64,000 bases of DNA from Candidatus Micrarchaeota archaeon (lineage in GTDB: Archaea; Micrarchaeota; Micrarchaeia; Anstonellales; Anstonellaceae). Position 1 is the first letter of the stretch. Each line of letters opens with the position of its first letter. The stretch spans positions 15,783 to 79,782 of the forward strand of contig JAPLWX010000050.1 of assembly GCA_026396415.1 (NCBI GenBank). Reading direction: 5' to 3'. This document shows positions 1,439-28,895 of the stretch, piece by piece. Position numbers and translations under genes: made by a program. The notes under the pieces were generated by a model. It was not told the DNA's origin. It saw only the letters and a program-made list of their open reading frames with translations, and searched no databases.

Positions 1439-1553
1439 ATGAAGTTATGGAGGAGGGGGTTTAAAAAAGTTCGTCAGAACTTTTTCAGGCGTGGGAATGC
1501 GCGCACTCCCACGAAGATAAAAAAGTTGGGCAGCATGCGCTCCGTTAACCATC

Positions 1554-2675
1554 CTACCCTTTCCCGCCGGCATGCCTTAGCATATCCCGCTTCATACCAA
1601 GAAGGGGCGCATCCAGGTCGTCAAGAATGCGGTATATGATCGTGCCGTGGTTGACTTTGCGGCATGCCTTGTCAAAAATGGCATAGGAGCATTTCTTTGA
1701 GGCGAGGCAAACGTCCAGCTCAAGCTGCATAAGCTCGCTTGCTACGGGGCTGCCGGGGTCGCGGCTTGCCCGGACATATGGCGATTTGCCCCCGTAATCG
1801 ACCGTGATGCCGATGAACGCGTATTTTTGGGCGCTCTCTTCCCCCTGGCGTAAAATGTTCATGCAGTGGGTGCATAAACGTATGGCATTCCCCTTCTTTC
1901 TTATCAGGACAGGGTCTGTCTCGAATGGCGTCTGCGACCCGGCGGGGATTTTTCGCACGCTTTGCACATGCTGCCGCGCAGCCTCCACGGCTTCCTGGAA
2001 CGCAGCCGCCCCCTCCTTGCTGCGCCGCCATTTTGGGTAGAAAACCCACGGCATCCCGAAGATTTTCCTCTGGCGCGCCTCCAACTCAGGGTTGCTGAAG
2101 GGGATGTGCATGTCAAGCGAGCGCACATCTTCCCCGGGGTCGTAAATCTTGTTGAGACCTGCGATGCACCCACCATGCCTCCAGAGCGAATAGAACCCAG
2201 CCGCTTTGATTTCTTTTTGCCCCAAATCCCTGACAGGGATGCCAAAGCGCAAAGAAATGGCTTCAAGCGCGAAAACGGTGTTCATGAAGCCAAGAGGCCA
2301 GACGCTTGTCTGCCCGTTGTTGTTGTAAGCCAGGCAGTAGCTGCCGTCAGGCTGGCGGATGAAGCTCGGCTTGTGCGGCTCCAAATTTTCAATCTTGAGC
2401 TTTTCATTATTAGGCAGGGCGCCTTTCCACTTCAGAAAAGCCCTTGCCCGGGTCGGCTTGCCGGAAAATATCCTGCTGCAGGAGAAAGTGTCCCTCGGAA
2501 TCCGCACGTTTTCCCCTTTCACCCTGGCTAAGATGATGCTGCGTGCTTCGCCCTGGCTTGCCATTGGCATGGGGGAAATTCGGATAACATGTGATTTTAA
2601 ATGTTGGGGCGCGTTCGCCTCTGGCAGCTGCGCTTGCTCTGGCGTCATGCTGCATCCTGATCCGGAGCCTCTCAC
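1554..2675 (-). CDS. hypothetical protein with Cys-rich C-terminal region (CTHCMN ... CLASKKCSY ... ACRK)
   Basis: 373-aa ORF. Its GTG start overlaps the upstream stop (a GTGA overlap at 2672-2675), which suggests translational coupling. No family recognised by eye. Confidence 0.4.
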   Translation of the reverse strand: MRGSGSGCSMTPEQAQLPEANAPQHLKSHVIRISPMPMASQGEARSIILARVKGENVRIPRDTFSCSRIFSGKPTRARAFLKWKGALPNNEKLKIENLEPHKPSFIRQPDGSYCLAYNNNGQTSVWPLGFMNTVFALEAISLRFGIPVRDLGQKEIKAAGFYSLWRHGGCIAGLNKIYDPGEDVRSLDMHIPFSNPELEARQRKIFGMPWVFYPKWRRSKEGAAAFQEAVEAARQHVQSVRKIPAGSQTPFETDPVLIRKKGNAIRLCTHCMNILRQGEESAQKYAFIGITVDYGGKSPYVRASRDPGSPVASELMQLELDVCLASKKCSYAIFDKACRKVNHGTIIYRILDDLDAPLLGMKRDMLRHAGGKG

Positions 2676-3367
2676 TCCACGCTCTTTTCATGGCGGGTTA
2701 TCAGGCTGTCGATTTCCTTAAGGAGGAGTTTCATGGATTGCGTGCGGCTCTCGAATGTGTACTGCCCGCGGTCAAGATGCAGCACGAACGCGTACATTTT
2801 CTTCGCTGCTCCATGCGCAGCCTTTCCCCGCTTTTTCGCACTGCCCTGCTTTTTTTCAAAATTGTCCTTTGCGAAACTGAAGCCCGTTTTTCCAACGTGG
2901 TAATCCACTCTGACTGAGAATGGCTTTTTCATATATGCGGAAAACGCCCATCTCAAATAGTCCCCCACCAGCCTTCTGATGTCGTTTATGTTGTCGGTTT
3001 CCTTGAACGGAATCTCGGGGTTCCAGATGGCGTATTGCGCCTCTGGCCGGTGTATCTTCATCTTTTTCTCTTTTTTGGGCGCCTTTTCCCTGTCTGCCTC
3101 GGCTTTTGGCGCGTCTTTCGCCACCTGGACCTCGGCTTTCTTCACAACCTCCATATCTGCAGGCTTTGGCTTCTCCCCTGCCTTTCTTGGCGCTTTAGGC
3201 TTCTTTTCCTGCACAGTTTCTGCGCGCTGCACCCGGCGGAAGGCATGCAAATCCGGCAGCAAGAGCGCCGCTTCCCAATCCGTCAATACAATGCGCCTGG
3301 TAACCGGAGCAGCTTGCATGGCCTGCCCTTTGGCACCGAGCTTTTTTTGTTCGCTGGACATGGGCAA
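2672..3367 (-). CDS. hypothetical protein with Lys/Ala/Glu-rich low-complexity centre
   Basis: 231-aa ORF. It overlaps the downstream gene by 4 nt, consistent with an operon. The C-terminal half reads as ordered sequence (YLRWAFSAYMKKPFSVRVDYHVGK). Confidence 0.4.
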   Translation of the reverse strand: MPMSSEQKKLGAKGQAMQAAPVTRRIVLTDWEAALLLPDLHAFRRVQRAETVQEKKPKAPRKAGEKPKPADMEVVKKAEVQVAKDAPKAEADREKAPKKEKKMKIHRPEAQYAIWNPEIPFKETDNINDIRRLVGDYLRWAFSAYMKKPFSVRVDYHVGKTGFSFAKDNFEKKQGSAKKRGKAAHGAAKKMYAFVLHLDRGQYTFESRTQSMKLLLKEIDSLITRHEKSVE

Positions 3368-3440
3368 ACTGGTGATAGTATATGGTTATAAAGGTATCTA
3401 TGCGGCGCGCTCCCATTTCCCGCCGCCCGGGCAAGAAGCC

Positions 3441-4208
3441 TCACTTTTTTTCCAGGGCGGAGATTTTTTCGTTGATTTCGCCCATCGCTTCCTTCAGGTT
3501 GCTTTCCAGCAGCGCTCCTTCATCCGGCCCAAACGCCTTCCTCAAATCCGCCAGGTGCTCCCCTGCCTTCTTGCAGGCATCAAGGGCATTGCCGTAGCTG
3601 GCCATTGCACTTTCCTTTGCATCTTCGCCATTGCCAGCATTCTGCGCGTTCCCCATATTCAGGCAAGTCCGTGCGATATTGATTTGGGAGAGGAAAAGAT
3701 CCTCCTGGCTCAAAAACTCGCGCCTTTCCTTCTTTTCGTACGAGATCTTATACTGCTCTGCAGACGCCTTGAAGTATCCGATTCCCTTCGGGTAGTCGTA
3801 TATCTTGCTTTTGTCAATCGGCACCGCACTCAGCATGTCTATGGTTTTCGTTTCCGGAGCAGTGTAAAGGAGGCCAAGCTGATAATATGTCACTGCCAGC
3901 GCGTTCTCATAGCGTCCATCATCGGACGCCTTGCCGGCAAGCTCAAGCGCCTTTTTCAGGTATTTTTCCGAGTCCAGGAGCCTCGGCTCGCGCATCGTCG
4001 GGTCGCTATAATTCGCCGCGCCGTTGCAAAGCGCCTCCCCGAAACGCCTGAGCTGCTCGGGGGAAAGATTGGGGATATTTTTGTTCAGCCAGAAGTCATT
4101 CCGGTATTCCTTGTTGCTTGTGTCCCACAGCATCTGCGTGAATATGCTCTCTGAAACCCCTGCCACTGCACCAAGTGACGCTGTTTTCTGGAAAATGAAC
4201 ATTCCCAT
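3441..4208 (-). CDS. hypothetical protein (helical, possibly TPR-like)
   Basis: 255-aa ORF, codirectional with and upstream of the 2672-3367 gene. No recognisable motif. Confidence 0.35.
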   Translation of the reverse strand: MGMFIFQKTASLGAVAGVSESIFTQMLWDTSNKEYRNDFWLNKNIPNLSPEQLRRFGEALCNGAANYSDPTMREPRLLDSEKYLKKALELAGKASDDGRYENALAVTYYQLGLLYTAPETKTIDMLSAVPIDKSKIYDYPKGIGYFKASAEQYKISYEKKERREFLSQEDLFLSQINIARTCLNMGNAQNAGNGEDAKESAMASYGNALDACKKAGEHLADLRKAFGPDEGALLESNLKEAMGEINEKISALEKK

Positions 4209-4371
4209 CCCTCCTGCGCAGCCTATTCTGCCGGAAAAACATAATAAAGCGCACCGGAACCACTGGAATGCCGCTTGGGAAGCGCTTATATCCCTCCTTT
4301 GCGCCAGCCTTTCCGCCTTTTGCAGGCGTTGCGCGCAAGCATTATAAGTTTAATGATACTTTAATGCAATG

Positions 4372-4383
4372 TTAATGCATTAA
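4372..4383. promoter_or_regulatory. perfect 12-nt palindrome TTAATGCATTAA with repeated TTAATGCA half-sites; candidate operator upstream of the RHH antitoxin gene
   Basis: Seen directly in an AT-rich leader. A GGTGAGG Shine-Dalgarno-like element lies at 4394-4400, before the ATG at 4403. Confidence 0.35.
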
Positions 4384-4402
4384 TATTGCAAAAGGTGAGG
4401 AA

Positions 4403-4663
4403 ATGAACGTGAACCTCCATTTGGCCGGCGACGTGGAAGCCTACATAGATTCCCTCGTGCGCCGCGGATTGGCGGCAAGCAAGACCGAGGCAGTGCGCCT
4501 CACAATCGTGCAGGCCCGGCAGCGCGAGCTTGAGCTGGAAAGCGAAAGGCGCGGCACGGACAGGCTCAACCAGATGACAATGGAGCTCGCATGGAACAAT
4601 CCAAAGGACGACGAAGCTGCGAAATTCTATGAGAAAAGGTATCTCCGTGGCAAAAAGATCTGA
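4403..4663 (+). CDS. ribbon-helix-helix (CopG-like) antitoxin
   Basis: 86 aa. Starts MNVNLHLAGDVEAYIDSLVRRGLAASKTEAVRLTI. Small size, and it overlaps a downstream MazF-like gene. Confidence 0.55.
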   Translation: MNVNLHLAGDVEAYIDSLVRRGLAASKTEAVRLTIVQARQRELELESERRGTDRLNQMTMELAWNNPKDDEAAKFYEKRYLRGKKI

Positions 4664-4970
4664 CATAGTGGTAGCAAAGGTCTATTTTTCGGATTCGCCA
4701 GATGGCAAGCTGCGCCCCTGCATTGTCCTTTCGGATGAGCGCTACAATTCCAGCGGCTTTGCGCTAGTGGCCCCCATCACAACCTCCGGCGACGAATACT
4801 GCCTGCCAATCGGGAAAAGCGACTGCGATTGCGACCTTGCGGGCGGAAGCGGCGCGCGCTTTGATGGAATCGCAAAAATCCCGCTTTCCCAGATACGGCA
4901 CAGGATAGGGCGGACAAAAGACGGGTTCTATTGGAAGCTAGCATCAAAAATCAGGGAACTTATCGAATGA
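4629..4970 (+). CDS. mazF: MazF/PemK family toxin (endoribonuclease)
   Basis: Motifs RSDIVVAKVYFSDSPDGKLRPCIVLSDE ... ALVAPITTS are typical of PemK/MazF. The start may instead be the GTG at 4647. It overlaps the antitoxin by 17-35 nt. Confidence 0.7.
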   Translation: MRKGISVAKRSDIVVAKVYFSDSPDGKLRPCIVLSDERYNSSGFALVAPITTSGDEYCLPIGKSDCDCDLAGGSGARFDGIAKIPLSQIRHRIGRTKDGFYWKLASKIRELIE

Positions 4971-5092
4971 GAAATGGCAGGGGAACCACCGGCATCCTGC
5001 TTGGAAAGCGTTTATATACCCGGCAAGCGGCAAGGATACGCTAAATTTCACCAAACGGGAGAAATCCCGGATGAATTTAGTGGAGTGAGAAT

Positions 5093-5383
5093 ATGGGTGG
5101 CTCTGGCGATGGTGAAATGCCAGGCAAGGAGGCGACTCCTGCTGAAGAAGAAGGCAAGGTGGCTGGGCAAAAGCCTGATTTCCGGATTGTCCAGCCTGAG
5201 TATGTGCCTGCGCTTGGCAAGACCATCTACAAGGACGTGGGCGCCATGTGGCGCAACGTCAGCAAGGCAGGCAACGAATTCTACACGTTGAAGATTGGGA
5301 AGCTCAAGCTTCTCGTTTTCCAGAACATCCAGTCGCCTATGGCGACTGTCTCTCAGGGGGCGCAGCCCCCGAAGACGAAGTGA
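5093..5383 (+). CDS. hypothetical small protein (96 aa)
   Basis: ORF between mazF and radA. The sequence is not low-complexity. No family recognised. Confidence 0.25.
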   Translation: MGGSGDGEMPGKEATPAEEEGKVAGQKPDFRIVQPEYVPALGKTIYKDVGAMWRNVSKAGNEFYTLKIGKLKLLVFQNIQSPMATVSQGAQPPKTK

Positions 5384-5408: not shown

Positions 5409-6404
5409 ATGGCAAGGAAAAAGGAGAGCGATTCTATGGCTGAGGAAGTTGTTGAGGAAAAGAAAAAACTAGTGATAAAAGAACTGGAAGACCTGCCCGG
5501 GGTGGGCGACGTTTCCGCGGAAAAGCTGCGGAAAGCTGGCTATGACATAGAGAAAATAGCCGCAAGCTCCCCCCACGAGCTTGACGAGATTGCCGACATC
5601 GGGGTGGAAACCGCAAAGAGGACGATTGCAGCGGCGCGCGACTCGCTTGAGATGGGCTACGAGTCAGCGGACAAGATACTGGAAAGGAGAAAAGAGATTG
5701 GCAGGATAACCACGGGCTCCAAGGAACTTGACGCGCTCATAGGCGGCGGCGTGGAGACAATGTCCATCACAGAATGCTACGGCAAGTTCTCATCCGGAAA
5801 ATCGCAGGTCGGCTTCCAGCTCGCGCTCAACGTGCAAAAGCCCGTCGCGCAGGGCGGGCTGGACGGCAACACGCTGTTCGTGGACACTGAAAGCACTTTC
5901 CGGCCCGAGAGGATTGCCCAGCTTGCGGAAAGCGCCGGGATGGACCCTGACGCGGCGCTCAAGAGGATATTCGTGGCAAAGGCGATAAATTCCGACCACC
6001 AGATGGTGCTTGTGGACAAGGCGGAGGAGATGGTGAAGGAGAAGAACATCCGCCTCATCGTGATAGACTCCATGACCGCGCACTTCCGCGCGGATTACAT
6101 AGGACGAGGGGCGCTAAGCGACAGGCAGCAGAAGCTCAACAAGCACGTGCACGCGCTCCAGAAGCTCGCGGACAAGCACAACATCGCAATCTACATCACC
6201 AACCAGGTGATGGACAACCCGGGCATCATGTTCGGCGACCCCACCACGCCGATTGGGGGCCACGTTCTCGCGCACGCCGCGACCTACAGGATATACCTGC
6301 GCAAGGGCAAGGAGGAGAAGAGAATCGCGCGCCTTGTGGACTCCCCGAACATGCCCGAGGGCGAATGCGTATTCAAAGTCACGCCAAAGGGAGTGACGGA
6401 CTAG
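5409..6404 (+). CDS. radA: DNA repair and recombination protein RadA
   Basis: Has an N-terminal HhH region (LEDLPGVGDVSAEKLRKAGYD). Walker A reads GKFSSGKSQ. The sequences LFVDTESTFRPERI and NIAIYITNQV are classic RadA/Rad51. The ATG at 5409 is chosen over the upstream GTG ORF start. Confidence 0.9.
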   Translation: MARKKESDSMAEEVVEEKKKLVIKELEDLPGVGDVSAEKLRKAGYDIEKIAASSPHELDEIADIGVETAKRTIAAARDSLEMGYESADKILERRKEIGRITTGSKELDALIGGGVETMSITECYGKFSSGKSQVGFQLALNVQKPVAQGGLDGNTLFVDTESTFRPERIAQLAESAGMDPDAALKRIFVAKAINSDHQMVLVDKAEEMVKEKNIRLIVIDSMTAHFRADYIGRGALSDRQQKLNKHVHALQKLADKHNIAIYITNQVMDNPGIMFGDPTTPIGGHVLAHAATYRIYLRKGKEEKRIARLVDSPNMPEGECVFKVTPKGVTD

Positions 6405-6460
6405 CCTCTTTTTTTTCCTTTCTTTTTTCCACGTTTTCCCCTTTACACTGCTTTTTTAAT
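6405..6460 (+). terminator. pyrimidine/oligo-T tract after radA (cctcttttttttcctttcttttttcc)
   Basis: Archaeal terminators are oligo-T runs, and this one follows the radA stop directly. A TATA-like tttttaataca follows, about 35 nt before the next ORF. Confidence 0.35.
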
Positions 6461-6491
6461 ACATTTCCACCAGGAAAAGCCCGGTGGTGGG

Positions 6492-6962
6492 ATGGGCTTT
6501 TTCGCTGTAAAACCAGAGGTTGCTGCATACAAGAATTTCGCCAAGGATGATGGATTCAAGAGAGTGGCGCTTCTTTCGCGCGAAATCAAGGTGCTTGAAG
6601 TGAAGCAGGGCGCTGCGCATGCCTTTGGGCAACGTGGGAAAGAGGCAAGATTGGAAACAAGAATCAACGCAAAGACCGTTGAGATAAAGACCCTGAAGCA
6701 AGGCCTTGCTGAAAAATACAATTTGCAGACGGTGCTCGCAGGATTTGAAGAATACAGCAAGGGCTTTGCCTCTGGCATGAAGGTTGCCGGCGGGATTCTC
6801 AAGGTCTTAGTGCCGACACTCACGATAGGCGCGGGGCTGTTTATCCTAACCGCGGCTGCCTTGCAGCCTTCATTTGCCCAAGCTTGGCTGTCTATGCTGC
6901 CCTCAAAGCGTCTGCAATTGCCTTTGTTAGCGGCGCCGGGAGCTTTGGATACCTGTTTTTGA
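6492..6962 (+). CDS. hypothetical protein with C-terminal hydrophobic segment
   Basis: 156-aa ORF with plausible K/E-rich composition. A competing antisense ORF (6443-7036) exists. Weak call. Confidence 0.3.
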   Translation: MGFFAVKPEVAAYKNFAKDDGFKRVALLSREIKVLEVKQGAAHAFGQRGKEARLETRINAKTVEIKTLKQGLAEKYNLQTVLAGFEEYSKGFASGMKVAGGILKVLVPTLTIGAGLFILTAAALQPSFAQAWLSMLPSKRLQLPLLAAPGALDTCF

Positions 6963-7513
6963 CAATAGCCACCCGCCCGTCTCACAAAGATGTGGTGGAG
7001 ATGGCTGCCACTGACGAACCTCGGTGCGGGAGCCACTTGCCTTCAGGCAGTGGAGGAGCACCGAGGCGCGTGGCTCCCCCTTCTGTTCCAGAAGCCTCGG
7101 CCTTCAGGCCGAGGTTCGTCACGCCTGGCAAAGCAAGAATCGACATGCCGCTGTGAAGTGCCTGGATTATAGAAAAGAGGATGGCGAAAAGGCGCATCAG
7201 TGGTCAGTTCAGCCTCGCACAATGAAAGAGCCTGCCGCACCACCATTTGGTAATATTTATAAAGACGTGTTAGCATATAATGCCCATAAAGAGGCCACAT
7301 CATGTCCGATTCCAAAAAACTCAAGAACCCTTCGGAAGCGCAAAACGAGAGGGAAAAGATAAGCATGGCGATTGGGAAGAGAAAGCACCCGCCTTTCAAC
7401 TGCGAATACAGCAGCAGGCAGAAGGAGCGGGGGAGCCAACGCTATCACTCGGGAAGGCACGGCTGATTCTCCCTCGTTCTCTTTTCTGCCTGTGTCTTCT
7501 CAGCAACAAATAT

Positions 7514-7526
7514 GTTTAAAAAACCG
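7514..7526 (+). promoter_or_regulatory. TATA-box-like tgtttaaaaaacc about 30 nt upstream of the 7557 ATG
   Basis: Position and sequence are typical of an archaeal TATA box with an upstream purine-rich BRE-like context. Confidence 0.35.
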
Positions 7527-7556
7527 TCGTGGTAGATTCCGCGCCAAGGTGAATAG

Positions 7557-9266
7557 ATGTCTAAAACTGCTGAGCTTCTGATGCCGAATAGTCCTCTGGT
7601 CAGGAATTTTGTAAATAAAAATCTACAGGCTGCGCTTGAGCGTGGAAGAAAGCCGATAGATATAAATGCGAGCAGGCTGCTCCTCGATATCAATTCCGAT
7701 ATTGGGCGGCTGCAAATCACACCTGAAGAAGCCAGGAAAAATCTTCAATGGCTGGAAGCTAATCATAAGGCGAATCTTCAAGAAAAAGATGCGAAAACAA
7801 TGATTGAAGCGCTGCTGCTTAAGACCGGCTGTCCATTCAATGCAGAAGCCATCAATGTGCTTGTCAATCTTCTCACGGACTCTGGCACGTCTCAGCTGAC
7901 CCCAAGGCAGGAAGCTTTCAAAAAGCAATGGCAATCCCTTGTGGCTGATGAATATACTGTTGCATACAATCGCCCTGCCACAAGAGACCCGCTGGATTTT
8001 GTTTTCCAGACAATGCTGGGTGAGCAGTTTGATTTCTATCTTACTCCCCAATGCAGGGGTGCTGAATTCGTTGGACTCAAGTCGCTGCTGGCAAACGGGG
8101 TTATAGAAGCCGAAGACTGGGTCCTGACAAACCACCCTTTTGATACTACAAAGGGGCATATCCTGTTGGCACTGCTCAATATCGCCATCTGCGGAGAAAA
8201 TATTACTCCTGAAAGATACGAGAAGGATCCCGACGGGTTCCATGGCAATATCAATATGGAAAAGTTGGCGGAAAATTACGAGAAAAGCGGCGGAAGGTCA
8301 AAAATCATCCTGGCCACGGTGACCGATAATGCGGATGGAGGCCAGCCTGTTTCAATGGAGAATCTGCGCAAAGTCTCTGAGTTTGCGCGTCCGCGCGGGC
8401 TCCTGGTGTGGCTGGACTCTTGCCGCATATTTGAAAACGCGATGCTCATCAAGCTGCACGAGCCTGGCTACCAGGACAAGACCGTGCATGAAATTGCAAA
8501 GGAAATGGCATCTTACGCGGATTTCGGCACAATAAGCTTCAAGAAGATATACTCGCACGAGGGAGGGGGCTTTTTTGTAAACCGCAATTCAGAGCTTCTC
8601 GCGGGCAAGATTGAGGCAATGGGCAGGTCTTTGCAGGAATACATCACCATATACTTTGGCTGCGGCTTTAAGTCTTATTCCGGAAAATCTGGAATGGCAA
8701 TGGTCGAGATGATGTCTGGCTTGTTTGAGGCTGTTGACCCAGAAATACTGATGAAGCGCATAGGCCAGGTGAAAGGCGCATACAAAGCTGTGCATCGACA
8801 TAGCAATAGCTGGCTGCCTGGTGCCCATGCGCTATACGCAGCGGCTGACAAGATTCTGTATAACGTGCCTAGGGAAAATTGCCGGGCAGAGACATTCCAG
8901 ATGGTAAACTTCGCGGCTCTTGGGATGCTTGGCTGCGCTTTGGGCGACAGGCTCAATGGCAAGTGGGAGAAGGATGGACAACTCTGGACACTAAAAGTTC
9001 CTGCTTCTGCGGATTGGATGAGGTACGCATTTCCAAGGGAGCGCTACATTGGTGCGAAACTCGCGTTAATCGAAATAGTGGGTATTGCTGAAAAAGAAGG
9101 CGTTTATTCGCAGATTAAGGATGGCTTTGAAGCCTTGGACTTCAACCCATTTGGGTTTTGGCATTTTGGATCAAGATTCAAGGCAATATCTCCTGCGGAG
9201 ATACAAAAAGCAATACTCTGGATCTATGATATCGCTGTCGCTTACTTGAAGGAGCGGATGGGATGA
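7557..9266 (+). CDS. beta-eliminating lyase family PLP enzyme (tryptophanase / tyrosine phenol-lyase-like) with about 90-aa N-terminal extension
   Basis: Aligns by eye to TnaA across the whole core. LLTDSGTSQLTP matches LLTDSGTGA, PQCRGAEF matches HQGRGAE, NHPFDTTKGH matches NYFFDTTQGH, and ILATVTDNADGGQPVS matches IVATITCNSAGGQPVS. A PLP-lysine context SFKK matches SAKKD. The gene is visibly lower in GC than its neighbours. Confidence 0.7.
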   Translation: MSKTAELLMPNSPLVRNFVNKNLQAALERGRKPIDINASRLLLDINSDIGRLQITPEEARKNLQWLEANHKANLQEKDAKTMIEALLLKTGCPFNAEAINVLVNLLTDSGTSQLTPRQEAFKKQWQSLVADEYTVAYNRPATRDPLDFVFQTMLGEQFDFYLTPQCRGAEFVGLKSLLANGVIEAEDWVLTNHPFDTTKGHILLALLNIAICGENITPERYEKDPDGFHGNINMEKLAENYEKSGGRSKIILATVTDNADGGQPVSMENLRKVSEFARPRGLLVWLDSCRIFENAMLIKLHEPGYQDKTVHEIAKEMASYADFGTISFKKIYSHEGGGFFVNRNSELLAGKIEAMGRSLQEYITIYFGCGFKSYSGKSGMAMVEMMSGLFEAVDPEILMKRIGQVKGAYKAVHRHSNSWLPGAHALYAAADKILYNVPRENCRAETFQMVNFAALGMLGCALGDRLNGKWEKDGQLWTLKVPASADWMRYAFPRERYIGAKLALIEIVGIAEKEGVYSQIKDGFEALDFNPFGFWHFGSRFKAISPAEIQKAILWIYDIAVAYLKERMG

Positions 9267-9309
9267 AAGAGTAGATACGAATAAAAGCGCGCTAGCTTCC
9301 AAGCTTTGC

Positions 9310-10320
9310 ATGGAAAAGTCCACCTGGCTCGCCACGCCCAACATCGCCGTGGTGAAATACTGGGGCAAGCGCGACTCCGCGCTCAACCTCCCCTACAATG
9401 GCAGCGTGAGCGTGACAATGGATGAGGCTGTGAGCACGCGCACCACGGTGGAGTTTGATGCGCGGCTTTCTCACGACTTGTTTTGCCTCAATGGAAAAGC
9501 TGCAAGACCGGAGGAAACGGTGCGCGTTTCCCGTGTGCTTGATGCGGTAAGAAAGAAGGCCGGGATAAAAACGCGCGCCAAAGTTCATTCGGAAAACAAT
9601 TTTCCCACCGCGGCAGGCATTGCCTCGTCTGCATCAGGCTTTGCCGCGCTTGCCTGCGCAGCTGCCGATGCGGCAGGAATGCGCGCGGGCAGCGCCTCGC
9701 TTTCACGCTTCGCGCGCATGGGCTCAGGGAGCGCGTGCCGTTCCGTTATTGGGGGATTCGCAGAATGGAAAAAGGGCGTGAAGGCTGACGGCTCTGACTC
9801 CTATGCTGTGCAGATTGCGCCCGCCTCGCACTGGCAGAAGCTTCGAAACGTCATAGCAATCACCGATGCGGGAAGGAAGCTTATAGGCTCTGACCTTGGC
9901 ATGCAGATGACCGTGCAGGGAAGCGCGCTTTACAAGGAAAGGCTGCGGAAGATGCCTGCCCTCATAAGAGGCATGAAGCACGCCATACTCGCGTGCGACC
10001 TTCCCTCGTTCCTCTCTCTTGCCATGAAAGAATCGTCCAACATGCACGCGGTGATGCTGGATTCCACGCCGCCAATAGTGTACCTGAATGACATTTCATA
10101 CGCCATAATGCGCGCGGTGCACGAGTTCAATGCGCAGCAGGGCAAGGTGGCGGCAGGATACACTTTTGACGCAGGCCCCAACGCGCACGTCTACACAGCC
10201 GAGCGGCATGCAAAAGCGATAGCGCGCATGCTTGAGGGAATAAAAGGCGTGAAAAAGACGATTGTGTGCAGGCCTGGCAACGGGCCGAGGCGCCTGCCAG
10301 AAAAAGAAGCGCTGTTCTAA
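9310..10320 (+). CDS. mvaD: mevalonate-pathway decarboxylase of the GHMP kinase family (diphosphomevalonate / phosphomevalonate decarboxylase)
   Basis: The motifs IAVVKYWGKRD and NNFPTAAGIASSASGFAALA are hallmark MVD motifs. 336 aa. Confidence 0.8.
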   Translation: MEKSTWLATPNIAVVKYWGKRDSALNLPYNGSVSVTMDEAVSTRTTVEFDARLSHDLFCLNGKAARPEETVRVSRVLDAVRKKAGIKTRAKVHSENNFPTAAGIASSASGFAALACAAADAAGMRAGSASLSRFARMGSGSACRSVIGGFAEWKKGVKADGSDSYAVQIAPASHWQKLRNVIAITDAGRKLIGSDLGMQMTVQGSALYKERLRKMPALIRGMKHAILACDLPSFLSLAMKESSNMHAVMLDSTPPIVYLNDISYAIMRAVHEFNAQQGKVAAGYTFDAGPNAHVYTAERHAKAIARMLEGIKGVKKTIVCRPGNGPRRLPEKEALF

Positions 10321-11169: not shown

Positions 11170-11967
11170 TTACTTTCTTCCCCTCTTCCTTGGCGCGCGA
11201 AGCCAGGATTTCCCCTTCCCTGCTGCACGCGCCCGTTTTGCTTTTGCCTGTGCGCCTTTCTCCCTCCATTCAAGAAGCACGGCAAGCAATTTCTTCAGCT
11301 TCCTTGACCTGAAGTTCCTCACAACTAGTGCAGCCCTGCCTGTAAGCTCGCGCGCCCGCATTGTCGTGGTGAGCGCCACGCAGGGCATCCCTGCAGCAGC
11401 GGCAGCCTCCACGCCGGAAAGCGAGTCCTCGAAAACAATGCACTCGGACGGCTTCACCCTTATCTTTTTTGCCGCGCGCAGGAAAATTTCAGGGGAGGGC
11501 TTCCCATTCTTCACATGCTCTATCGCCACGAATGGAACGCCCTTCAGGCCGGCGGAGCGCAGCGACTCCTCCACATGGTTGGCATGCCCCCCTGATGCCA
11601 CTGCCTCCTTGATGCCGTTCTCCACAAGCAGATGGTGCACCTCTGCAAAGCCCTTGATTATTGGGAGCTTGTTCTTCCGAATCTCAGCAAGGTAAATGGC
11701 ATTCCTCCTCTTCACAAGCGTCCGCGCATCCTCCTTTATGCCATATCTCCTTATCAAATCCTTGAAGATGGCAGGTGAGCCGATGCCCGTGTACGCGCGC
11801 TTCCAGTGCGCGTTGTTGATTTTCACTCCGTATTTTGCAAGCGCGCGCTCGAATGTCCGCGGGTGCACCATCTCGGAGTCCACGATGACTCCGTCAAGGT
11901 CGAAAATAACCGCCTTGAAGCTGGAAAGGGCGGATAGCGGGACGGGCTTGAAATTCTTTTTTCGCAT
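11170..11967 (-). CDS. HAD-superfamily hydrolase (beta-phosphoglucomutase-like subfamily IA) with K/R-rich C-terminal tail
   Basis: Motif I is FKAVIFDLDGVIVDSE. The downstream motifs EDSLSGVEAAAAAGMPCVALTT are present. The start is placed at the internal ATG (MRKKNF) of a longer 594-aa open frame. Confidence 0.65.
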   Translation of the reverse strand: MRKKNFKPVPLSALSSFKAVIFDLDGVIVDSEMVHPRTFERALAKYGVKINNAHWKRAYTGIGSPAIFKDLIRRYGIKEDARTLVKRRNAIYLAEIRKNKLPIIKGFAEVHHLLVENGIKEAVASGGHANHVEESLRSAGLKGVPFVAIEHVKNGKPSPEIFLRAAKKIRVKPSECIVFEDSLSGVEAAAAAGMPCVALTTTMRARELTGRAALVVRNFRSRKLKKLLAVLLEWREKGAQAKAKRARAAGKGKSWLRAPRKRGRK

Positions 11968-12383
11968 GCCCCTGCTGTTTTTCCTGCTTCCATGGCTTGC
12001 GTATTCGAAATTCTTATTGCCAGGCATCCTGTTTTTTCCCTCTTGAACTCGAATTCTGCCTGTCTCTTGGCTTGCTCCTGCCTGCTTCATCCGGGAGCTT
12101 TGATATCCTGAGGCTGCTGCGGCAATTCCTGCAATCGCATCCTGGCGGGAATTCCCACATGCATCTGTCCTCACGTTTTCTGCAAGCACTGGCATTTGTG
12201 CAATCAATGCCGCCACGTCATCGACAACGTGGCAGCCAATGCCTGCGCCAAACCATTCCTGGTTTCCAATGTTTGGTCCTGCAATAGCGCTTTCGGGCGC
12301 ATTTGACGGCGCCTCCGCTCGAAATTTCCCCTCTGGCACTGAGAAAGAGAATGCAAAACCGTCAAAAGAGAAAACAGAGGGGA

Positions 12384-12954
12384 TACGGGCCGGCTTTCTT
12401 GCCGCATCTGCAATCGCCTTTGCACGGAGCTGAAGGAAAAGGAAGCGGTAATCCTCTCTCATATCTCCCATATAATGCCTGCGCATCATCTTTGCAAAGT
12501 CGCTCATGTTCACGTCTGCCTCTGTGAATTCGTCAAGCTGGAATGAGGCATGCACCCCGTCATAACGGGTTTTTATCGTATTGTCCAAGTCTCGGTGGTC
12601 GTAAACGAAGAAAATCTCAATCGCTTTGTCCCGCATGAATTCCGGGTCAAATAGCATGTTCCTGAAGTCGAGATAAATCTTTTTTCTCTCCCCATCCTCG
12701 CCATCAACTTCAACATATGGCATGTATTTTCTGCCGCTCTTTTTGTCTTTTATCACAAAATGATAGTATTTTGAGCGCTTGCCATCGACTTCAATCAGCT
12801 GCCACCCAAGCTCATGCCGCTTATCCCATTTGATATTGAGAGCCGGAGTTATGCCGTCCACAATCGGCATATTCTTTTCAAATTCAATGTTCTTTTTTTT
12901 AGGGCCGCCTCTGCCATTAACAACTACTGCTTCCGTTACGTATTTTTCTGGCAC
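12384..12954 (-). CDS. unknown protein domain (lower GC), in-frame with the downstream HAD ORF through a low-complexity linker; possibly an independent gene, a fusion or a pseudogene
   Basis: The first about 190 aa (MPEKYVTEAVVVNGRGGPKKKNIEFEK...YRFLFLQLRAKAIADAARK) read as ordered protein. About 140 aa of Ala/Gly/Ser-rich sequence then follow before the HAD start. Confidence 0.3.
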
Positions 12955-14676: not shown

Positions 14677-16437
14677 TTACTTGATGCCCCGTTCCTTCTT
14701 TATCTCTTCATATGCTTCATTCAGCACGCCGAACTGGTGGCCCAAGCTCCTCTTCTCGTCTTCGCTTGCGTTTGGGTGCTTGTCAGGGTGGAATTCCATC
14801 GCCTTGGTCCTGTAAGCCTTCTTTATTTCCTCATCGCTTGCTTCCCGCGAAACTCCGAGAATGTCGTACTTGTCCCTGTAGCTTGAGGCTGGGCTTTCTG
14901 CAGATTGGTAATCGCCTTCATGCGTCCCACTGCCTTCATCCTGCTTTGTTTCCCTGCCATGCCCTGCGCCCCTTCCCTGCCCGAAGCCACCCTCCCATTC
15001 GCTTTTGAAGCCTGAAAAGAATGAATCGTAGTAGCTGTCATAGAATTTGTCCGAGCTCCCGAATGCTTCCTTGCACCTATTATACATCTCGGAAATCTCA
15101 GCCATGCGCTCAGGGGCGTATTCCATGAAGAAGTTGTACAGGCTGCGCGAATAGTCGTGCCTGTCCGCAAAAAATCCGATGTCGTCTTTGCCAAGAAGCA
15201 TGGCCTCCAGGGTTTCGATTATGGAGTCCCCCGCCTGCTTTTTCACTTCGCTGTAGACCCAGTTTGGGAGGAAGCCAGGGTATGCATCGAACAGGTTCAT
15301 CATCATTGTCAAATAGGGCCCATCCCCTAAGTTGTCGTTGAATTCGTCAGCCCATCCCCGTGTTATGCAGCTTTTTATCTCCTTCTTGCAATGGTCGGCA
15401 AATTCGTGCATCAGCTTGGCTTCATTCTTCCTGAAAGCGACTGGCGCAAGCTCAGCAATATCATGCAGCCGCCTGAGGACATATGCCAGGTAAATAGTTT
15501 CGTTCATGTCTTCCCGGAAGTGCCCGTAAGTCCATTTGTAGACCAGGTTTTCCTTCTCCACCCGTATCTCCTTGTAAACGGCACCGAAGTCTTCCTTTAT
15601 CTTGTTTGATATTAGGACAGCATCCCTAATCCTGTTCTCGCGCAGGGAGAAGTACCCCTGCTCATTCTCCTTCAAGTCTTCATTTATTCTCAGGCTGCTT
15701 CGCAGGAATTCAAGGGCAAAAACTTTCAGGTTTTCGTGGATTTCCCGCCGTTCTGGCATGGAAGCGAGGAATTCCTTCGGGATGTTCGATTCAGTGAGCT
15801 TCAGGAACTCCAAATAGCGGGATAGGATGCAGTAATCGTTCATGTCCAGCGTTTCCCTGTTGTCAAACAGGTAGGAAACCTTCTCCTTGCCCACATTCCA
15901 CACCAGGAGTGCAACCTGCCTTTTGCCCTCCTCACTGCAGACAATATATGCCTTTTTGACCGGTTCTTTAGCCCTGTCAAACCAGTTCAATGCATAATAG
16001 CCACCGTTTAGCGCCTGCCGCACTTCTTCAATCATCTGCCTGTCAACGCTATTCAGTTCCTGTTGCTCGCCGTTCGCAGCTTGTTTTCCTGAAAGGCACG
16101 CCTGTTGCTCGAGGTTGCACGTCCCAGTTCGTGTTTTTGCCGATTCCTGGCCGATTCTGCCCGTCCCGCCCTCGCTGCGCCTCTCTTCAATCAGGTCCCT
16201 TTTCTGGAATGCCAATGTGCTGTTGCCCAGGTATTTTTCAGGGTCAATGCCTCTGAGCTTGCAGTAGGCAATGAATATTTTTGTGTATTCTTCGCCCCTG
16301 CTCCTGTCCAGGCCGGCAAGCTCGCGGATAAGCTTGGCAGCCACATCCAATTTCTTTGAGACGATGCATTCTGGAATAAGGAGCTCAAGCTCAGTTACTC
16401 TCTGGCTTTTTTTGGCTTCTTGGAACAACGGTGCCAC
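14677..16437 (-). CDS. large protein with C-terminal DnaJ (J) domain and unknown N-terminal region
   Basis: The C-terminus reads DKYDILGVSREASDEEIKKAYRTKAMEFHPDKHPN, which includes the HPD tripeptide. The start is a GTG at 16437, and an internal ATG is possible. Confidence 0.65.
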   Translation of the reverse strand: MAPLFQEAKKSQRVTELELLIPECIVSKKLDVAAKLIRELAGLDRSRGEEYTKIFIAYCKLRGIDPEKYLGNSTLAFQKRDLIEERRSEGGTGRIGQESAKTRTGTCNLEQQACLSGKQAANGEQQELNSVDRQMIEEVRQALNGGYYALNWFDRAKEPVKKAYIVCSEEGKRQVALLVWNVGKEKVSYLFDNRETLDMNDYCILSRYLEFLKLTESNIPKEFLASMPERREIHENLKVFALEFLRSSLRINEDLKENEQGYFSLRENRIRDAVLISNKIKEDFGAVYKEIRVEKENLVYKWTYGHFREDMNETIYLAYVLRRLHDIAELAPVAFRKNEAKLMHEFADHCKKEIKSCITRGWADEFNDNLGDGPYLTMMMNLFDAYPGFLPNWVYSEVKKQAGDSIIETLEAMLLGKDDIGFFADRHDYSRSLYNFFMEYAPERMAEISEMYNRCKEAFGSSDKFYDSYYDSFFSGFKSEWEGGFGQGRGAGHGRETKQDEGSGTHEGDYQSAESPASSYRDKYDILGVSREASDEEIKKAYRTKAMEFHPDKHPNASEDEKRSLGHQFGVLNEAYEEIKKERGIK

Positions 16438-26037: not shown

Positions 26038-27369
26038 TCAGGCAATCGCTGCCAGTATGGCTTTTTCAGCAGCAGCAACCGTTTCGTCCAGCTTTTTCTT
26101 GCCCTTAAACTCGCATGTAAGGCGCATGGCGGGCTCGGTGCCGGAAGGGCGCACAAGAAGCCAGCCATCGGAAAAATCATAGCGCAGTCCGTCTATGGTG
26201 GAAAGCTTTGCTTCAGGGAACGCCAGCCCCCCTGCCAGCTCCGCCATTATCCTTTCCTTGCTTTTTCCCCCGCACCCGTACTTGCGCCTCTCTATGGGAT
26301 ATGTTTTCACGCCGTCTGCAAGCGCGGAAAGCCTGCCTTTTGTGCAGAATATCTCAGCAAGGCAAAGCGCGGAGAGGAGCCCGTCCGCGCAAGGCGTGGA
26401 GGACGGGAAAACATACTCCCCGCAAGGCTCGCCGCCAAAAACCGCGCCCTGCTTTTTCACCTGCTCGGCAACAAACAGGCTGCCAACAGGGGTGATAGAA
26501 AGCCTGCCGCCCGCCTTCTCCACAGTCTCCTTAACGCAAAGCGAAGCCTCCACCGTGCTGACAATCGCGCCTTTTTTCTTTTTCAGGAAATGCGCGCAGA
26601 AAATGGCAAGCTGCACATCCAGCGCAAGCACCCTTCCTTTCTCGTCAATGCCGATTGCGCGGTCCCCGTCCCCGTCGAATGCAATCCCAAGGTCGCACCT
26701 GTTCTTCTTCACGGCCTCTGATGCCACGGTAAGTGTTTCTGCTTTTGGCTCCAAATCCCTCCCGGGCTTTCCAGGCTCGCTGCAGTACAGCTCCACCACC
26801 TCGCAGCCGGCAGCCCTCAAAAGCGCAGGGGCTAAAATGGAGGCAGCGGCATTCCCAGCATCAACCAGCACGCGCGGCTTCCTGCCTGCAATGGATGGCG
26901 TGTCCACCTGCGGGAGCAGGAAATGGGCATACTCCTGCGCATAGTCTTTGCTCTCCTTCTGCCCGGCCTCATTCCAGGCAACCGCGCTTTCCTTGCCTGC
27001 AATTGCCGCTTCCACTTCGGCTTCCTGGCTGCGCGTGAATTCCGAGCCGCATGAAAACAGCTTTATGCCATTGTATTCCGGCGGATTGTGCGATGCCGTG
27101 ACCATGGCGCCATTGCACTTCTCGCGCGCGGTGGCATATGCCAGCAAAGGGGTGGGCGCCATGCCGATATCAACAACGCCTGCTCCCGAAAGCATGGCCC
27201 CCGCGGCAATCGCATTTGCAAGAAGCGGGGAAGTGGAGCGCGCATCGCGCGCAATAATGAGTTTTCCCCCTTTCTTCCCAGCCGCGCCTCCTGTGCGCAT
27301 GGCGAGGGAAGCAGTGACCTCCTTGCCGTAAATGCCCCGTATGCCTGATGTCCCGAACAAGCCTGCCAT
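26038..27369 (-). CDS. glmM: phosphohexomutase (phosphoglucosamine mutase / phosphomannomutase family)
   Basis: The N-terminus reads LFGTSGIRGIYG. The active-site serine loop is TASHNPPEYNGIKLF. The C-terminus is GWLLVRPSGTEP. Confidence 0.85.
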   Translation of the reverse strand: MAGLFGTSGIRGIYGKEVTASLAMRTGGAAGKKGGKLIIARDARSTSPLLANAIAAGAMLSGAGVVDIGMAPTPLLAYATAREKCNGAMVTASHNPPEYNGIKLFSCGSEFTRSQEAEVEAAIAGKESAVAWNEAGQKESKDYAQEYAHFLLPQVDTPSIAGRKPRVLVDAGNAAASILAPALLRAAGCEVVELYCSEPGKPGRDLEPKAETLTVASEAVKKNRCDLGIAFDGDGDRAIGIDEKGRVLALDVQLAIFCAHFLKKKKGAIVSTVEASLCVKETVEKAGGRLSITPVGSLFVAEQVKKQGAVFGGEPCGEYVFPSSTPCADGLLSALCLAEIFCTKGRLSALADGVKTYPIERRKYGCGGKSKERIMAELAGGLAFPEAKLSTIDGLRYDFSDGWLLVRPSGTEPAMRLTCEFKGKKKLDETVAAAEKAILAAIA

Positions 27370-27422
27370 GCTTTGGCTTGGGGCAAATAGCCTTTTAAAG
27401 TCTTAATCTCACAGACCTCGAT

Positions 27423-28894: not shown

Positions 28895-28895
28895 G

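What the first reader, a model, noticed from the sequence alone, without database searches (positions are those of the whole stretch)
7200..9266. Tryptophanase/tyrosine-phenol-lyase-family gene with a novel N-terminal extension inside a lower-GC patch
The 569-aa protein aligns by eye with TnaA from the LLTDSGT block through the PLP-lysine region SFKK. It carries about 90 extra N-terminal residues. The gene, together with the roughly 360 bp between 7200 and 7556 that precede it, is noticeably less GC-rich than the flanking radA/mvaD genes. Beta-eliminating lyases of this family are sporadic in archaea. The composition shift suggests lateral acquisition, possibly of an indole-, phenol- or sulfur-amino-acid-related activity.
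Basis: partly seen in the sequence, partly recalled or inferred. Interest (0 to 1): 0.5.

Follow-up and report, generated by a model that had tools for sequence, protein, structure and literature searches.

The report
Laterally acquired long tryptophanase-like gene
A tiny symbiotic archaeon (Micrarchaeota) carries an intact but divergent tryptophanase-like enzyme gene from a rare archaeal "long-form" subfamily; the gene sits in a swap-prone slot between two conserved genes and was most likely acquired sideways, which is a tidy case but not a surprising one.

Summary
ORF 7557..9266 (+) encodes a 569-aa PLP-dependent beta-eliminating lyase with a TnaA/TPL fold. All catalytic residues are intact: K329/K330, Y137, R167, N258, D287, R290, R489.

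At the five positions that separate indole-lyases from phenol-lyases it reads D196, F371, C460, L462, H536. That is indole-lyase-like and matches TPL at none.

It is not a canonical TnaA. It scores below the NCBIfam cut-offs and belongs to a rare monophyletic clade: about 25 proteins at 33–43% identity, and about 16 clusters among 1.84 billion representatives. Every named clade member is a DPANN archaeon. The clade shares an ~81-residue helical N-terminal module, a ~20-residue C-terminal helix and an altered motif after the PLP lysine, so the extension belongs to the clade, not to this gene alone.

The host is a Micrarchaeota (Anstonellaceae-like) archaeon.

Lateral acquisition is well supported:
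- Five relatives (RadA 85–94% identical) keep radA and MVD, but each has different cargo between them and none has a lyase.
- The lyase is the most codon-atypical of 51 ORFs (z 9.3; GC3 0.53 vs 0.675).
- No donor or mobility gene was identified.

In passing: a 114-nt structured element (7009..7122) in the same slot is conserved in six unrelated metagenome contexts.

The parts
5409..6404 (+). radA, the conserved left anchor of the variable slot
   Evidence: NF003301 RadA scores 463 bits. DNA homology to relatives ends at 6390-6426. Codon usage is typical (z 1.9).
6405..9300 (.). Lineage-specific cargo segment (variable radA-MVD slot), GC 0.496
   Evidence: It has no DNA or protein similarity to the corresponding segment in L088, L089, L099, L100 or L101, each of which holds a different cargo. 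GC ranks 17th lowest of 612 windows.
6492..6962 (+). ORF156: hypothetical coiled-coil/TM protein that shares the slot with the lyase, possibly frameshifted against ORF 6884..7156
   Evidence: No Pfam or PHROGs match. Codon-atypical (GC3 0.555, z 4.3). Absent from other clade loci.
7009..7122 (+). 114-nt GC-rich structured element (side finding), possibly an unannotated ncRNA
   Evidence: Fold z -4.3. It is 81-100% identical in 6 metagenome contigs whose flanks are unrelated. Two to three pairs covary. No Rfam family matches.
7200..7556 (+). AT-richer upstream spacer. It holds a TATA-like TTTAAAAAA (7515-7523), the Shine-Dalgarno-like AGGTGA (7547-7552), and a doubtful 54-aa sORF (7302..7466).
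   Evidence: Sequence read. GC 0.487. The anti-SD match to the 16S 3' end is. The promoter role is inferred and not tested.
7557..9266 (+). Tryptophanase-like PLP lyase CDS, 569 aa
7557..7799 (+). N-terminal module (aa 1-81): helices 13-30, 36-43, 56-75. Clade-specific, with no canonical counterpart.
   Evidence: The hhalign match starts at residue 82. pLDDT is 82-96 over residues 11-70. A weak shared motif (A..AF..S.KPID...R..LD...W) runs across the clade. No PDB sequence match.
7800..9197 (+). Catalytic core (aa 82-547), homologous to TnaA 27-471. Key codons: Y137 7965-7967, D196 8142-8144, D287 8415-8417, R290 8424-8426, K329/K330 8541-8546, R489 9021-9023, H536 9162-9164.
   Evidence: Residue map to E. 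coli TnaA. These residues are invariant across the clade.
9198..9263 (+). Extra C-terminal helix (aa ~548-569), clade-specific
   Evidence: Canonical TnaA ends at about window residue 547. Helix 546-567 has pLDDT ~94. It is conserved as EF...V..L across the clade.
9310..10320 (+). MVD (diphosphomevalonate decarboxylase type), the conserved right anchor. It lies 43 nt downstream on the same strand.
   Evidence: TIGR01240 scores 296 bits. Homology to relatives resumes at 9301-9328. Codon z 1.3.

Best explanation
**What it is.** The gene encodes a functional fold-type-I PLP enzyme that most likely works as a tryptophan indole-lyase: L-Trp + H2O -> indole + pyruvate + NH4+.

**Mechanism, inferred by homology to TnaA.**
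1. K330 holds PLP as an internal aldimine.
2. D287 and R290 anchor the pyridine N1 and the O3'.
3. R489 binds the substrate carboxylate.
4. After transaldimination, K330 abstracts the C-alpha proton.
5. Y137 acts as the general acid on indole C3, with D196 and H536 positioning the indole ring.
6. Indole leaves, and the aminoacrylate hydrolyses to pyruvate and ammonium.

**What is unusual about the protein.** It belongs to a rare long-form subfamily restricted, as far as named members show, to DPANN archaea. The subfamily adds a three-helix N-terminal module and a C-terminal helix, and it changes the loop after the PLP lysine (KK[MI]Y[SA]H instead of KKDxxxN). These changes probably alter oligomer contacts and monovalent-cation dependence. 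That step is inferred and not shown.

**How it got here.** In this Micrarchaeota genome the gene is accessory cargo. It lies in a hypervariable slot between radA and MVD and was most likely acquired laterally from a lower-GC archaeon carrying the same subfamily. It probably has its own TATA-like promoter and a Shine-Dalgarno site.

**Likely role.** For a host-dependent, biosynthetically poor cell, the plausible payoff is pyruvate and ammonium from scavenged tryptophan. Indole would be a by-product or a signal.
For: **Fold and family**
- PF01212 scores 89 bits.
- TnaA and TPL are the top hits by sequence.
- They are also the top hits by structure: TM-score to target 0.81-0.86, from a model with pLDDT 86.6 and pTM 0.89.

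**Catalytic residues**
- All are conserved in the window protein and invariant across 20 clade members.

**Specificity positions** (PMC5805759: TIL D137/F304/V394/I396/H463 versus TPL T124/M288/M379/R381/F448)
- The window has D196, F371, C460, L462 and H536.
- Cys at the V394 position also occurs in 5 of 17 canonical-like sequences.

**Clade**
- 100% NJ bootstrap on a long stem.
- The score drops from 233 to 172 bits.
- Among full-length proteins it drops from 548 to about 330 bits in a census of 1.84e9 representatives.
- Named members are Micrarchaeia, Micrarchaeota, Woesearchaeota and 'uncultured archaeon'.

**Host identity**
- RadA is 85-94% identical to Micrarchaeota/Anstonellaceae proteins.

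**Acquisition**
- Five relatives carry five different slot cargos and no lyase remnant.
- Codon deviation is z 9.3, the top of 51 ORFs. GC3 is 0.528 against 0.675 +/- 0.075.
- In five other clade loci the lyase is GC-richer than its host DNA (+0.014 to +0.063). Here it is -0.067.

**Start site**
- An SD match supports ATG 7557.
Against: - No biochemical evidence exists for any member of this clade.
- The protein scores below the curated NCBIfam cut-offs: PRK13238 221.6 vs 285, and TIGR02617 144.8 vs 825.8.
- The window protein has the longest branch in the clade. It departs from otherwise near-invariant clade residues, for example G166C, G259A/G260D, R458L, Y467N and S487W.
- The canonical cation-site motifs (GDE[AS]Y, and Asn after KK) are not conserved.
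- No conserved gene neighbours point to tryptophan metabolism or transport in any clade locus.
- For the transfer, no integrase, tRNA target, flanking direct repeats or identified donor was found. Ancient presence followed by repeated replacement in relatives is therefore not excluded.
Confidence: 0.6

Rival explanations
1. Same enzyme, opposite physiological direction. It salvages tryptophan by beta-replacement or reverse reaction (indole + L-Ser/L-Cys, or indole + pyruvate + NH4+, giving L-Trp). This would let an amino-acid-auxotrophic DPANN cell use indole supplied by its host or community.
For: The indole-binding residues D196, F371 and H536 are conserved. Canonical TnaA is known to catalyse these reverse and replacement reactions (established enzymology, my own knowledge). 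DPANN genomes generally lack amino-acid biosynthesis (stated in PMC7567580).
Against: Nothing in the sequence distinguishes direction. The Trp-biosynthesis status of this genome cannot be judged from 64 kb. No indole- or serine-related neighbours were seen.
Confidence: 0.15
2. A beta-eliminating lyase with a different main substrate, such as L-cysteine or S-substituted cysteine desulfhydrase, or another aromatic amino acid. The clade-specific changes would have retuned the specificity.
For: The protein scores below the TnaA and TPL equivalog cut-offs. The loop after the PLP lysine and the 8-residue longer loop before Y137 are altered. V394 is replaced by an invariant Cys. The family includes non-Trp enzymes such as the thiocysteine lyase domain 9cen.
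Against: Four of the five indole-lyase discriminators are kept or conservatively replaced, and none is TPL-like. TPL's essential R381 is Leu here.
Confidence: 0.15
3. The gene is ancestral to Micrarchaeota and vertically inherited. Relatives lost or replaced it, and the odd composition reflects gene-specific constraints rather than transfer.
For: The clade is archaeal/DPANN and includes other Micrarchaeia members. No mobility genes or repeats flank the slot. Other low-GC genes exist in the window.
Against: Five of five relatives, including one with RadA 94% identical, lack it and carry unrelated cargo in exactly that slot. The synonymous-codon deviation is the strongest in the window, and slot-mate ORF156 is also atypical. 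In other clade genomes the lyase is not GC-poor relative to its host. The lyase sits in a different genomic context in every clade locus.
Confidence: 0.2
4. The gene is a decaying or non-functional recent acquisition.
For: It has the longest terminal branch in the clade and several departures from near-invariant clade positions.
Against: The 569-codon ORF is intact. All catalytic residues are retained. The full-length model is confident. It has an SD motif and a TATA-like element.
Confidence: 0.05

Closest known systems
Tryptophan indole-lyase TnaA (E. coli 2c44/2oqx; P. vulgaris 1ax4), EC 4.1.99.1
   Same: Same fold (TM-score to target 0.83-0.86). The PLP Lys pair, catalytic Tyr, carboxylate Arg, and the PLP Asp and Arg are the same. 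The indole-specific Asp, Phe and His are the same.
   Different: Only about 26-28% identical. It scores below the NCBIfam cut-offs. It has an ~81-residue non-homologous N-terminal module in place of the 26-residue N-terminal arm, and an extra C-terminal helix. The motif after the lysine is KK[MI]Y[SA]H instead of KKDxxxN, and GDE[AS]Y is not conserved. There is no tnaC leader or tnaB permease.
Tyrosine phenol-lyase (C. freundii 2ez1), EC 4.1.99.2
   Same: Same fold and same general catalytic machinery.
   Different: None of the five TPL-specific residues (T124, M288, M379, R381, F448) is present. The window has D, F, C, L and H (PMC5805759).
Butyricicoccus sp. 'long' tryptophanase (PDB 8sl7, 569 aa)
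   Same: Same length and same overall fold. It aligns over about 550 columns (TMq 0.71), which shows that extended tryptophanases exist and have been solved.
   Different: It is more distant in sequence than canonical TnaA (E 4e-23, residues 176-436 only). The window's N-terminal 171 residues find no match to it. The extensions therefore appear to be independent.
Archaeal tnaA of haloarchaea and Aeropyrum (PMC8537960), and the DPANN TnaA homologs counted in PMC7567580
   Same: They are archaeal tryptophanase genes with a patchy, HGT-prone distribution. DPANN homologs have previously been noted as putative indole synthases.
   Different: Those surveys treat canonical-length genes or bare BLAST counts (2 DPANN hits). 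The long DPANN clade, its N- and C-terminal modules and its genomic context were not described in the papers I could search.

Membership tests
Beta-eliminating lyase family (Pfam PF01212; fold-type I PLP enzymes) | Profile score above the curated gathering threshold | tested here: met
   89.3 bits against a cut-off of 27.
Beta-eliminating lyase family (Pfam PF01212; fold-type I PLP enzymes) | PLP-binding lysine in an S-x-K-K motif, plus an Asp to the pyridine N1 and an Arg to O3' | tested here: met
   S327, K329, K330, D287 and R290 align to E. coli S267, K269, K270, D227 and R230. All are invariant in the clade.
Beta-eliminating lyase family (Pfam PF01212; fold-type I PLP enzymes) | TnaA/TPL-type three-dimensional fold | tested here: met
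   AF2 model with pLDDT 86.6. Foldseek top 45 hits are all TnaA or TPL, with TM-score to target up to 0.86.
Tryptophanase TnaA (EC 4.1.99.1) | Score above the NCBIfam equivalog or subfamily cut-offs | tested here: not met
   PRK13238 221.6 vs 285. NF053783 183 vs 750. TIGR02617 144.8 vs 825.8.
Tryptophanase TnaA (EC 4.1.99.1) | General-acid Tyr74, Arg103, carboxylate-binding Arg419 and Asn198 | tested here: met
   Y137, R167, R489 and N258.
Tryptophanase TnaA (EC 4.1.99.1) | Indole-lyase specificity set D137, F304, V394, I396, H463 (PMC5805759) | tested here: met
   D196, F371, C460, L462, H536. Three are identical and I->L is conservative. V->C is also seen in 5 of 17 canonical-like sequences.
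Tryptophanase TnaA (EC 4.1.99.1) | Monovalent-cation site (Glu of GDE[AS]Y; Asn five residues after the PLP Lys) | tested here: inconclusive
   The motifs are replaced (x-T-x-A-Y; KK[MI]Y[SA]H[ST]). However, the alignment is ambiguous around an 8-residue insertion, and some ligands are backbone carbonyls.
Tryptophanase TnaA (EC 4.1.99.1) | Releases indole from L-tryptophan | not testable with these tools
   Needs an enzyme assay.
Tyrosine phenol-lyase (EC 4.1.99.2) | T124, M288, M379, R381, F448 (PMC5805759), and the TIGR02618 cut-off | tested here: not met
   The window has D, F, C, L and H. TIGR02618 scores 136.6 vs 720.7.
Laterally acquired accessory gene / genomic islet | Interrupts conserved synteny and is absent from close relatives | tested here: met
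   radA and MVD are conserved in L088, L089, L099, L100 and L101, with five different cargos between them. Homology breaks at ~6404 and resumes at ~9301.
Laterally acquired accessory gene / genomic islet | Atypical composition and codon usage relative to the host | tested here: met
   Codon z 9.3 (rank 1 of 51). GC3 is 2 SD below the mean. Slot GC is in the lowest 3% of windows.
Laterally acquired accessory gene / genomic islet | Mobility signatures (integrase or transposase, tRNA target, flanking direct repeats) | tested here: not met
   No tRNA in the window. No flanking repeats. No PHROGs or Pfam mobility hits in the slot.
Laterally acquired accessory gene / genomic islet | Identified donor lineage | tested here: not met
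   The nearest homolog is only 43% identical (P0002, 'uncultured archaeon').

The most novel reading that the evidence does not exclude
The long DPANN clade could be a functionally distinct enzyme subfamily. Its helical N-terminal module, C-terminal helix and rebuilt post-lysine loop might create a new oligomeric or partner-binding mode with cation-independent catalysis. Host-dependent archaea might use it to convert host-derived indole into tryptophan, or to emit indole toward the host. Separately, the neighbouring 114-nt element (7009..7122) could be a new class of conserved structured RNA in Micrarchaeota-like archaea.
Probability: 0.15. Interest if true: 0.6.

Novelty: new variant of a known kind. 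Interest (0 to 1): 0.35.

Why it matters
Tryptophanase makes indole, a widely used interspecies signal, and yields pyruvate and ammonium. DPANN archaea depend on hosts and have very few metabolic genes, so any retained or acquired catabolic enzyme says something about what they exchange with partners.

This locus gives a clean example of accessory-gene turnover at a fixed hot spot between two core genes in Micrarchaeota. It also defines a small, uncharacterised long-form tryptophanase subfamily that curated models do not capture.

The finding is incremental. The chemistry is predictable, and database annotators already call relatives "tryptophanase" or "beta-eliminating lyase-related".

Tried and rejected
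2. **Deep protein search with the N-terminal module alone.** Nothing passed. Even clade members failed the E-value bar, so the test had no power.
3. **The listing of cluster members for ten clade proteins.** It added no organism names.
4. **afdb50 fold search.** The library was unavailable.
5. **First tree script.** It timed out and was redone with numpy.
6. **First codon script.** It used an out-of-frame radA start, so that row was an artefact. It was corrected.
7. **Remnants of relatives' slot genes in the window, and of the lyase in relatives' slots.** None were found.
8. **Co-transferred partners.** ORF156 and the 54-aa sORF are absent from other clade loci and have no Pfam or PHROGs hits.
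9. **tnaC-like leader or known RNA upstream of the lyase.** Rfam gave nothing. The immediate 5' region folds no better than shuffles (z -1.6).
10. **TPL-type function.** Rejected on the specificity residues.
11. **The 114-nt element as a MITE, tRNA, 5S or known Rfam family.**
    - It is single-copy per locus.
    - No target-site duplication is visible in the flanks.
    - It is absent from viral contigs.
    - It has no consistent Rfam hit.
Full report
**Observation**

The window contains an uninterrupted ORF at 7557..9266 (+) of 569 aa.
- It matches Pfam PF01212 (Beta_elim_lyase) at 89.3 bits against a cut-off of 27.
- Its best solved relatives are tryptophanases (P. vulgaris 1ax4, E 5.6e-37; E. 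coli; B. thetaiotaomicron) followed by tyrosine phenol-lyases.
- An AlphaFold2 model built on an 18-sequence clade alignment is confident (mean pLDDT 86.6, pTM 0.89).
- Foldseek returns only TnaA and TPL structures at the top, with TM-scores to the target of 0.81-0.86.
- The flanking genes are radA (NF003301, 463 bits) and a diphosphomevalonate-decarboxylase-type MVD (TIGR01240, 296 bits).

GC is 0.484 for the gene and 0.487 for 7200-7556. This compares with 0.575 for radA, 0.579 for MVD and 0.548 for the window.

**What kind of lyase**

I fetched E. coli tnaA and aligned it with the clade and with canonical-like sequences. Every catalytic residue maps onto an identical residue:

| E. coli TnaA | Window protein |
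|---|---|
| Y74 | Y137 |
| R103 | R167 |
| N198 | N258 |
| D227 | D287 |
| R230 | R290 |
| S267 | S327 |
| K269 / K270 | K329 / K330 |
| Y307 | Y374 |
| R419 | R489 |
| F464 | F537 |

PMC5805759 lists the five active-site positions that are conserved differently in indole-lyases (D137, F304, V394, I396, H463) and phenol-lyases (T124, M288, M379, R381, F448). The window protein has D196, F371, C460, L462 and H536. That is indole-lyase-like at four positions and TPL-like at none. TPL's essential Arg381 is Leu here. Cys at the V394 position also occurs in 5 of 17 canonical-like sequences. By homology the most likely chemistry is alpha,beta-elimination of L-tryptophan. This is inference from conserved residues, not a demonstrated activity.

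**It is not a canonical TnaA**

It scores below the curated NCBIfam cut-offs: PRK13238 221.6 vs 285, and TIGR02617 144.8 vs 825.8.

In a search of 5.8 billion proteins the only near-identical hit is the same gene (P0001). About 24 proteins follow at 33-43% identity and 530-600 aa. The score then drops sharply (233 to 172 bits) to the 458-aa bacterial tryptophanases. An exhaustive profile search of 1.84 billion cluster representatives finds only about 16 clusters above 350 bits. Among full-length proteins there is a gap from 548 to about 330 bits.

A neighbour-joining tree (454 columns, 200 bootstraps) recovers the clade at 100% on a long stem. The window protein has the longest terminal branch and pairs with P0002, an 'uncultured archaeon' protein. 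All named members are DPANN archaea: Micrarchaeia, Micrarchaeota and Woesearchaeota.

**The extensions**

Profile-profile alignment of the clade against canonical TnaA matches window residues 82-549 to E. coli 27-471.
- The first ~81 residues have no canonical counterpart. The net gain is about 55 residues, because canonical TnaA has a 26-residue N-terminal arm before the aligned region.
- About 20 residues are added at the C-terminus.
- Both additions occur in every clade member, so the extension is a clade trait rather than a novelty of this gene.
- The N-terminal module is weakly conserved in sequence: A..AF..S.KPID...R..LD, then a loop, then a Trp-containing helix. It is predicted with confidence as helices 13-30, 36-43 and 56-75 (pLDDT 82-96). 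The C-terminal addition is predicted as helix 546-567.
- The N-terminal module has no sequence match in the PDB. That includes the solved 569-aa 'long' tryptophanase of Butyricicoccus (8sl7), which resembles the model globally but is more distant in sequence than canonical TnaA.

Further clade signatures:
- KK[MI]Y[SA]H replaces KKDxxxN after the PLP lysine.
- The loop before the catalytic Tyr is 8 residues longer, and the GDE[AS]Y motif is lost.

In TPL and TnaA these regions contribute to the monovalent-cation site (my own knowledge). Cation dependence may therefore differ, but the alignment there is ambiguous and I rate this inconclusive.

The start codon at 7557 is supported by an AGGTGA ending 4 nt before it, complementary to the window's own 16S 3' end (...GATCACCTCC). 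ATG 7581, chosen by another gene caller, has no such motif. A TATA-like TTTAAAAAA at 7515-7523 would place a transcription start just upstream of that SD. This is inferred.

**Host and acquisition**

RadA is 85-94% identical to proteins labelled Micrarchaeota, Micrarchaeia, Anstonellaceae and Ca. Anstonella stagnisolia. The window therefore comes from a Micrarchaeota (DPANN) archaeon. Dozens of relatives exist for RadA, but none carries a lyase closer than 43%.

I fetched the radA neighbourhoods of relatives:

| Locus | RadA identity to window | Cargo between radA and MVD |
|---|---|---|
| Window | – | ORF156, a 114-nt element and the lyase |
| L089 | 85% | a 314-aa hypothetical on the minus strand; collinear with the window over ~10 genes (purP-like x2, small ORF, radA, [slot], MVD, small ORF, NUDIX, HAD, CobO-like, radical SAM, GARS, epimerase, DUF350) |
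| L088 | 88% | an antitoxin-like ORF, a PIN toxin and a 113-aa ORF |
| L099 | 94% | a 249-aa Por_Secre_tail protein |
| L100 / L101 | 91% | a 1006-aa protein plus a 51-aa ORF |

DNA homology to the window ends at the radA stop (6390-6426) and resumes at 9301-9328, just before the MVD start. No lyase remnant exists in any relative, and no remnant of their cargo exists in the window. The radA-MVD junction is thus a hypervariable slot, and 6405-9300 is lineage-specific cargo.

Composition agrees:
- Of 51 ORFs the lyase shows the largest synonymous-codon deviation (z 9.3).
- Its GC3 is the second lowest (0.528 against 0.675 +/- 0.075).
- Slot-mate ORF156 is also atypical (z 4.3), while radA (1.9) and MVD (1.3) are typical.
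- In five other clade loci the lyase is slightly GC-richer than its host DNA (+0.014 to +0.063). Here it is 0.067 poorer. This argues against an intrinsic property of the gene family.
- Clade loci share no conserved neighbours.

Against a simple island model, there is no integrase, tRNA, flanking repeat or identifiable donor. Cassette replacement by recombination in the conserved flanks is a plausible route but is not shown. I put lateral acquisition at about 0.75 and ancestral presence with serial replacement at about 0.2.

**Function in context**

For a host-dependent archaeon the simplest benefit is pyruvate plus ammonium from scavenged tryptophan, with indole released. Indole has been proposed as a DPANN/CPR signal on the basis of two BLAST hits (PMC7567580).

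The same active site could run in the synthetic or replacement direction to salvage tryptophan from indole, and I cannot separate these roles from sequence. A different main substrate is possible given the sub-threshold scores and the clade-specific loops, but the retained indole-specific residues make it less likely. Pseudogenisation is unlikely: the ORF is intact, the catalytic set is intact, and the model is confident.

**Novelty**

Archaeal tnaA has been discussed mainly for haloarchaea and Aeropyrum (PMC8537960). DPANN homologs have only been counted. I found no description of this long clade. Databases already label members 'tryptophanase' or 'beta-eliminating lyase-related protein'. I classify it as a new variant of a known kind, of modest interest.

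**Side finding: a 114-nt structured element**

Within the same slot, 435 nt upstream of the lyase ATG, lies a 114-nt GC-rich element at 7009..7122.
- It folds far better than shuffles on either strand (z -4.3).
- An independent assembly of this genome breaks inside it, at 7094.
- A scan of metagenome contigs with its two terminal arms found six further copies, 81-100% identical. The conservation has sharp edges and the flanks are completely unrelated, with host GC from 0.42 to 0.57.
- Each locus has one copy. None occurs in the syntenic relatives or in viral contigs.
- Two to three base pairs covary (AU<->GC in a 9-bp helix), and the G·U versus A·C patterns slightly favour the + strand.
- The sequence contains two CCUCGG and two CCGAGG blocks that allow mutually exclusive pairings.
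- In most loci it lies shortly downstream of a co-oriented gene.
- No Rfam family matches.

It may be an unannotated structured RNA, or less likely a mobile palindromic element. Seven sequences are too few to decide.

Noticed in passing
window 7009..7122 (+); copies at L093:680-793(-), L094:926-1042(-), L095:1190-1307(-), L096:4998-5111(+), L097:583-696(+), L098:621-734(+): A 114-nt GC-rich, highly structured element (fold z -4.3). It is 81-100% identical in six independent metagenome contigs whose flanks are unrelated and whose host GC ranges from 0.42 to 0.57. It is single-copy per locus, has sharp edges, shows 2-3 covarying pairs, and contains CCUCGG/CCGAGG blocks that allow alternative pairings. 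It has no Rfam match and is absent from viral contigs. It is a candidate new structured RNA, or a palindromic mobile element.
   Followed up: partly
window 1468..5040: A second lineage-specific insertion relative to L088/L089, between the purP-like genes and the small ORF upstream of radA. It holds two hypothetical genes (1554..2675 -, 3441..4208 -) and a toxin-antitoxin pair (RHH-like 4403..4663, and a PemK/MazF toxin at 4629..4970 with Pfam E 9e-10).
   Followed up: partly
window 14677..16437 (-): A 585-aa protein with a C-terminal DnaJ domain sits between the radical-SAM and GARS genes. Relatives L088 and L089 have nothing there. It is codon-atypical (z 5.6, GC 0.505), so it is probably another accessory insertion.
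   Followed up: no
window 51380..52948 (+): The archaeal 16S rRNA gene stands alone. No 23S or 5S rRNA was detected, and no tRNA was found by ARAGORN anywhere in the 64 kb. The rRNA genes are unlinked, as in many DPANN archaea.
   Followed up: no
window 6492..7156 (+): ORF156 (6492..6962) ends in a TM-like segment. An overlapping +2-frame ORF (6884..7156) begins with another TM-like segment. This may be a frameshifted or decaying membrane-protein gene in the slot.
   Followed up: no
window 5093..5383 (+); L089:2931-3155; L088:9773-9982: A small ORF of ~70-96 aa immediately upstream of radA is conserved at 59-64% identity in relatives. It has a weak DUF736 match (E 7e-4). It seems to be a fixed partner of radA in this family.
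   Followed up: partly
window ~27000..29500 and 50064..51107: Other low-GC or codon-atypical patches. One holds a GNAT acetyltransferase (27640..28209) and a LemA protein (28896..29447), with GC down to 0.42. The other is a 347-aa hypothetical (GC3 0.523, z 6.1). They are probably further accessory genes.
   Followed up: no
window 7302..7466 (+): A 54-aa basic sORF called by another pipeline. It is preceded by a TATA-like TTTATAAA (~7256-7263) and an AGAGG motif. It has no homologs in the other loci, so its status is doubtful.
   Followed up: partly
database proteins P0026, P0111, P0248, P0250-P0253, P0256 (about 900 aa): Tandem fusions of two tryptophanase-like domains in one ~900-aa polypeptide are among the nearest outgroups of the clade. 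This architecture is unusual for the family.
   Followed up: no
window 11170..12954 (-): The HAD-family hydrolase is 594 aa. Its ~340-residue N-terminal region has no Pfam match, and its 5' part is low in GC (12250-13000, 0.45-0.48). Orthologs in relatives are 470-566 aa.
   Followed up: no
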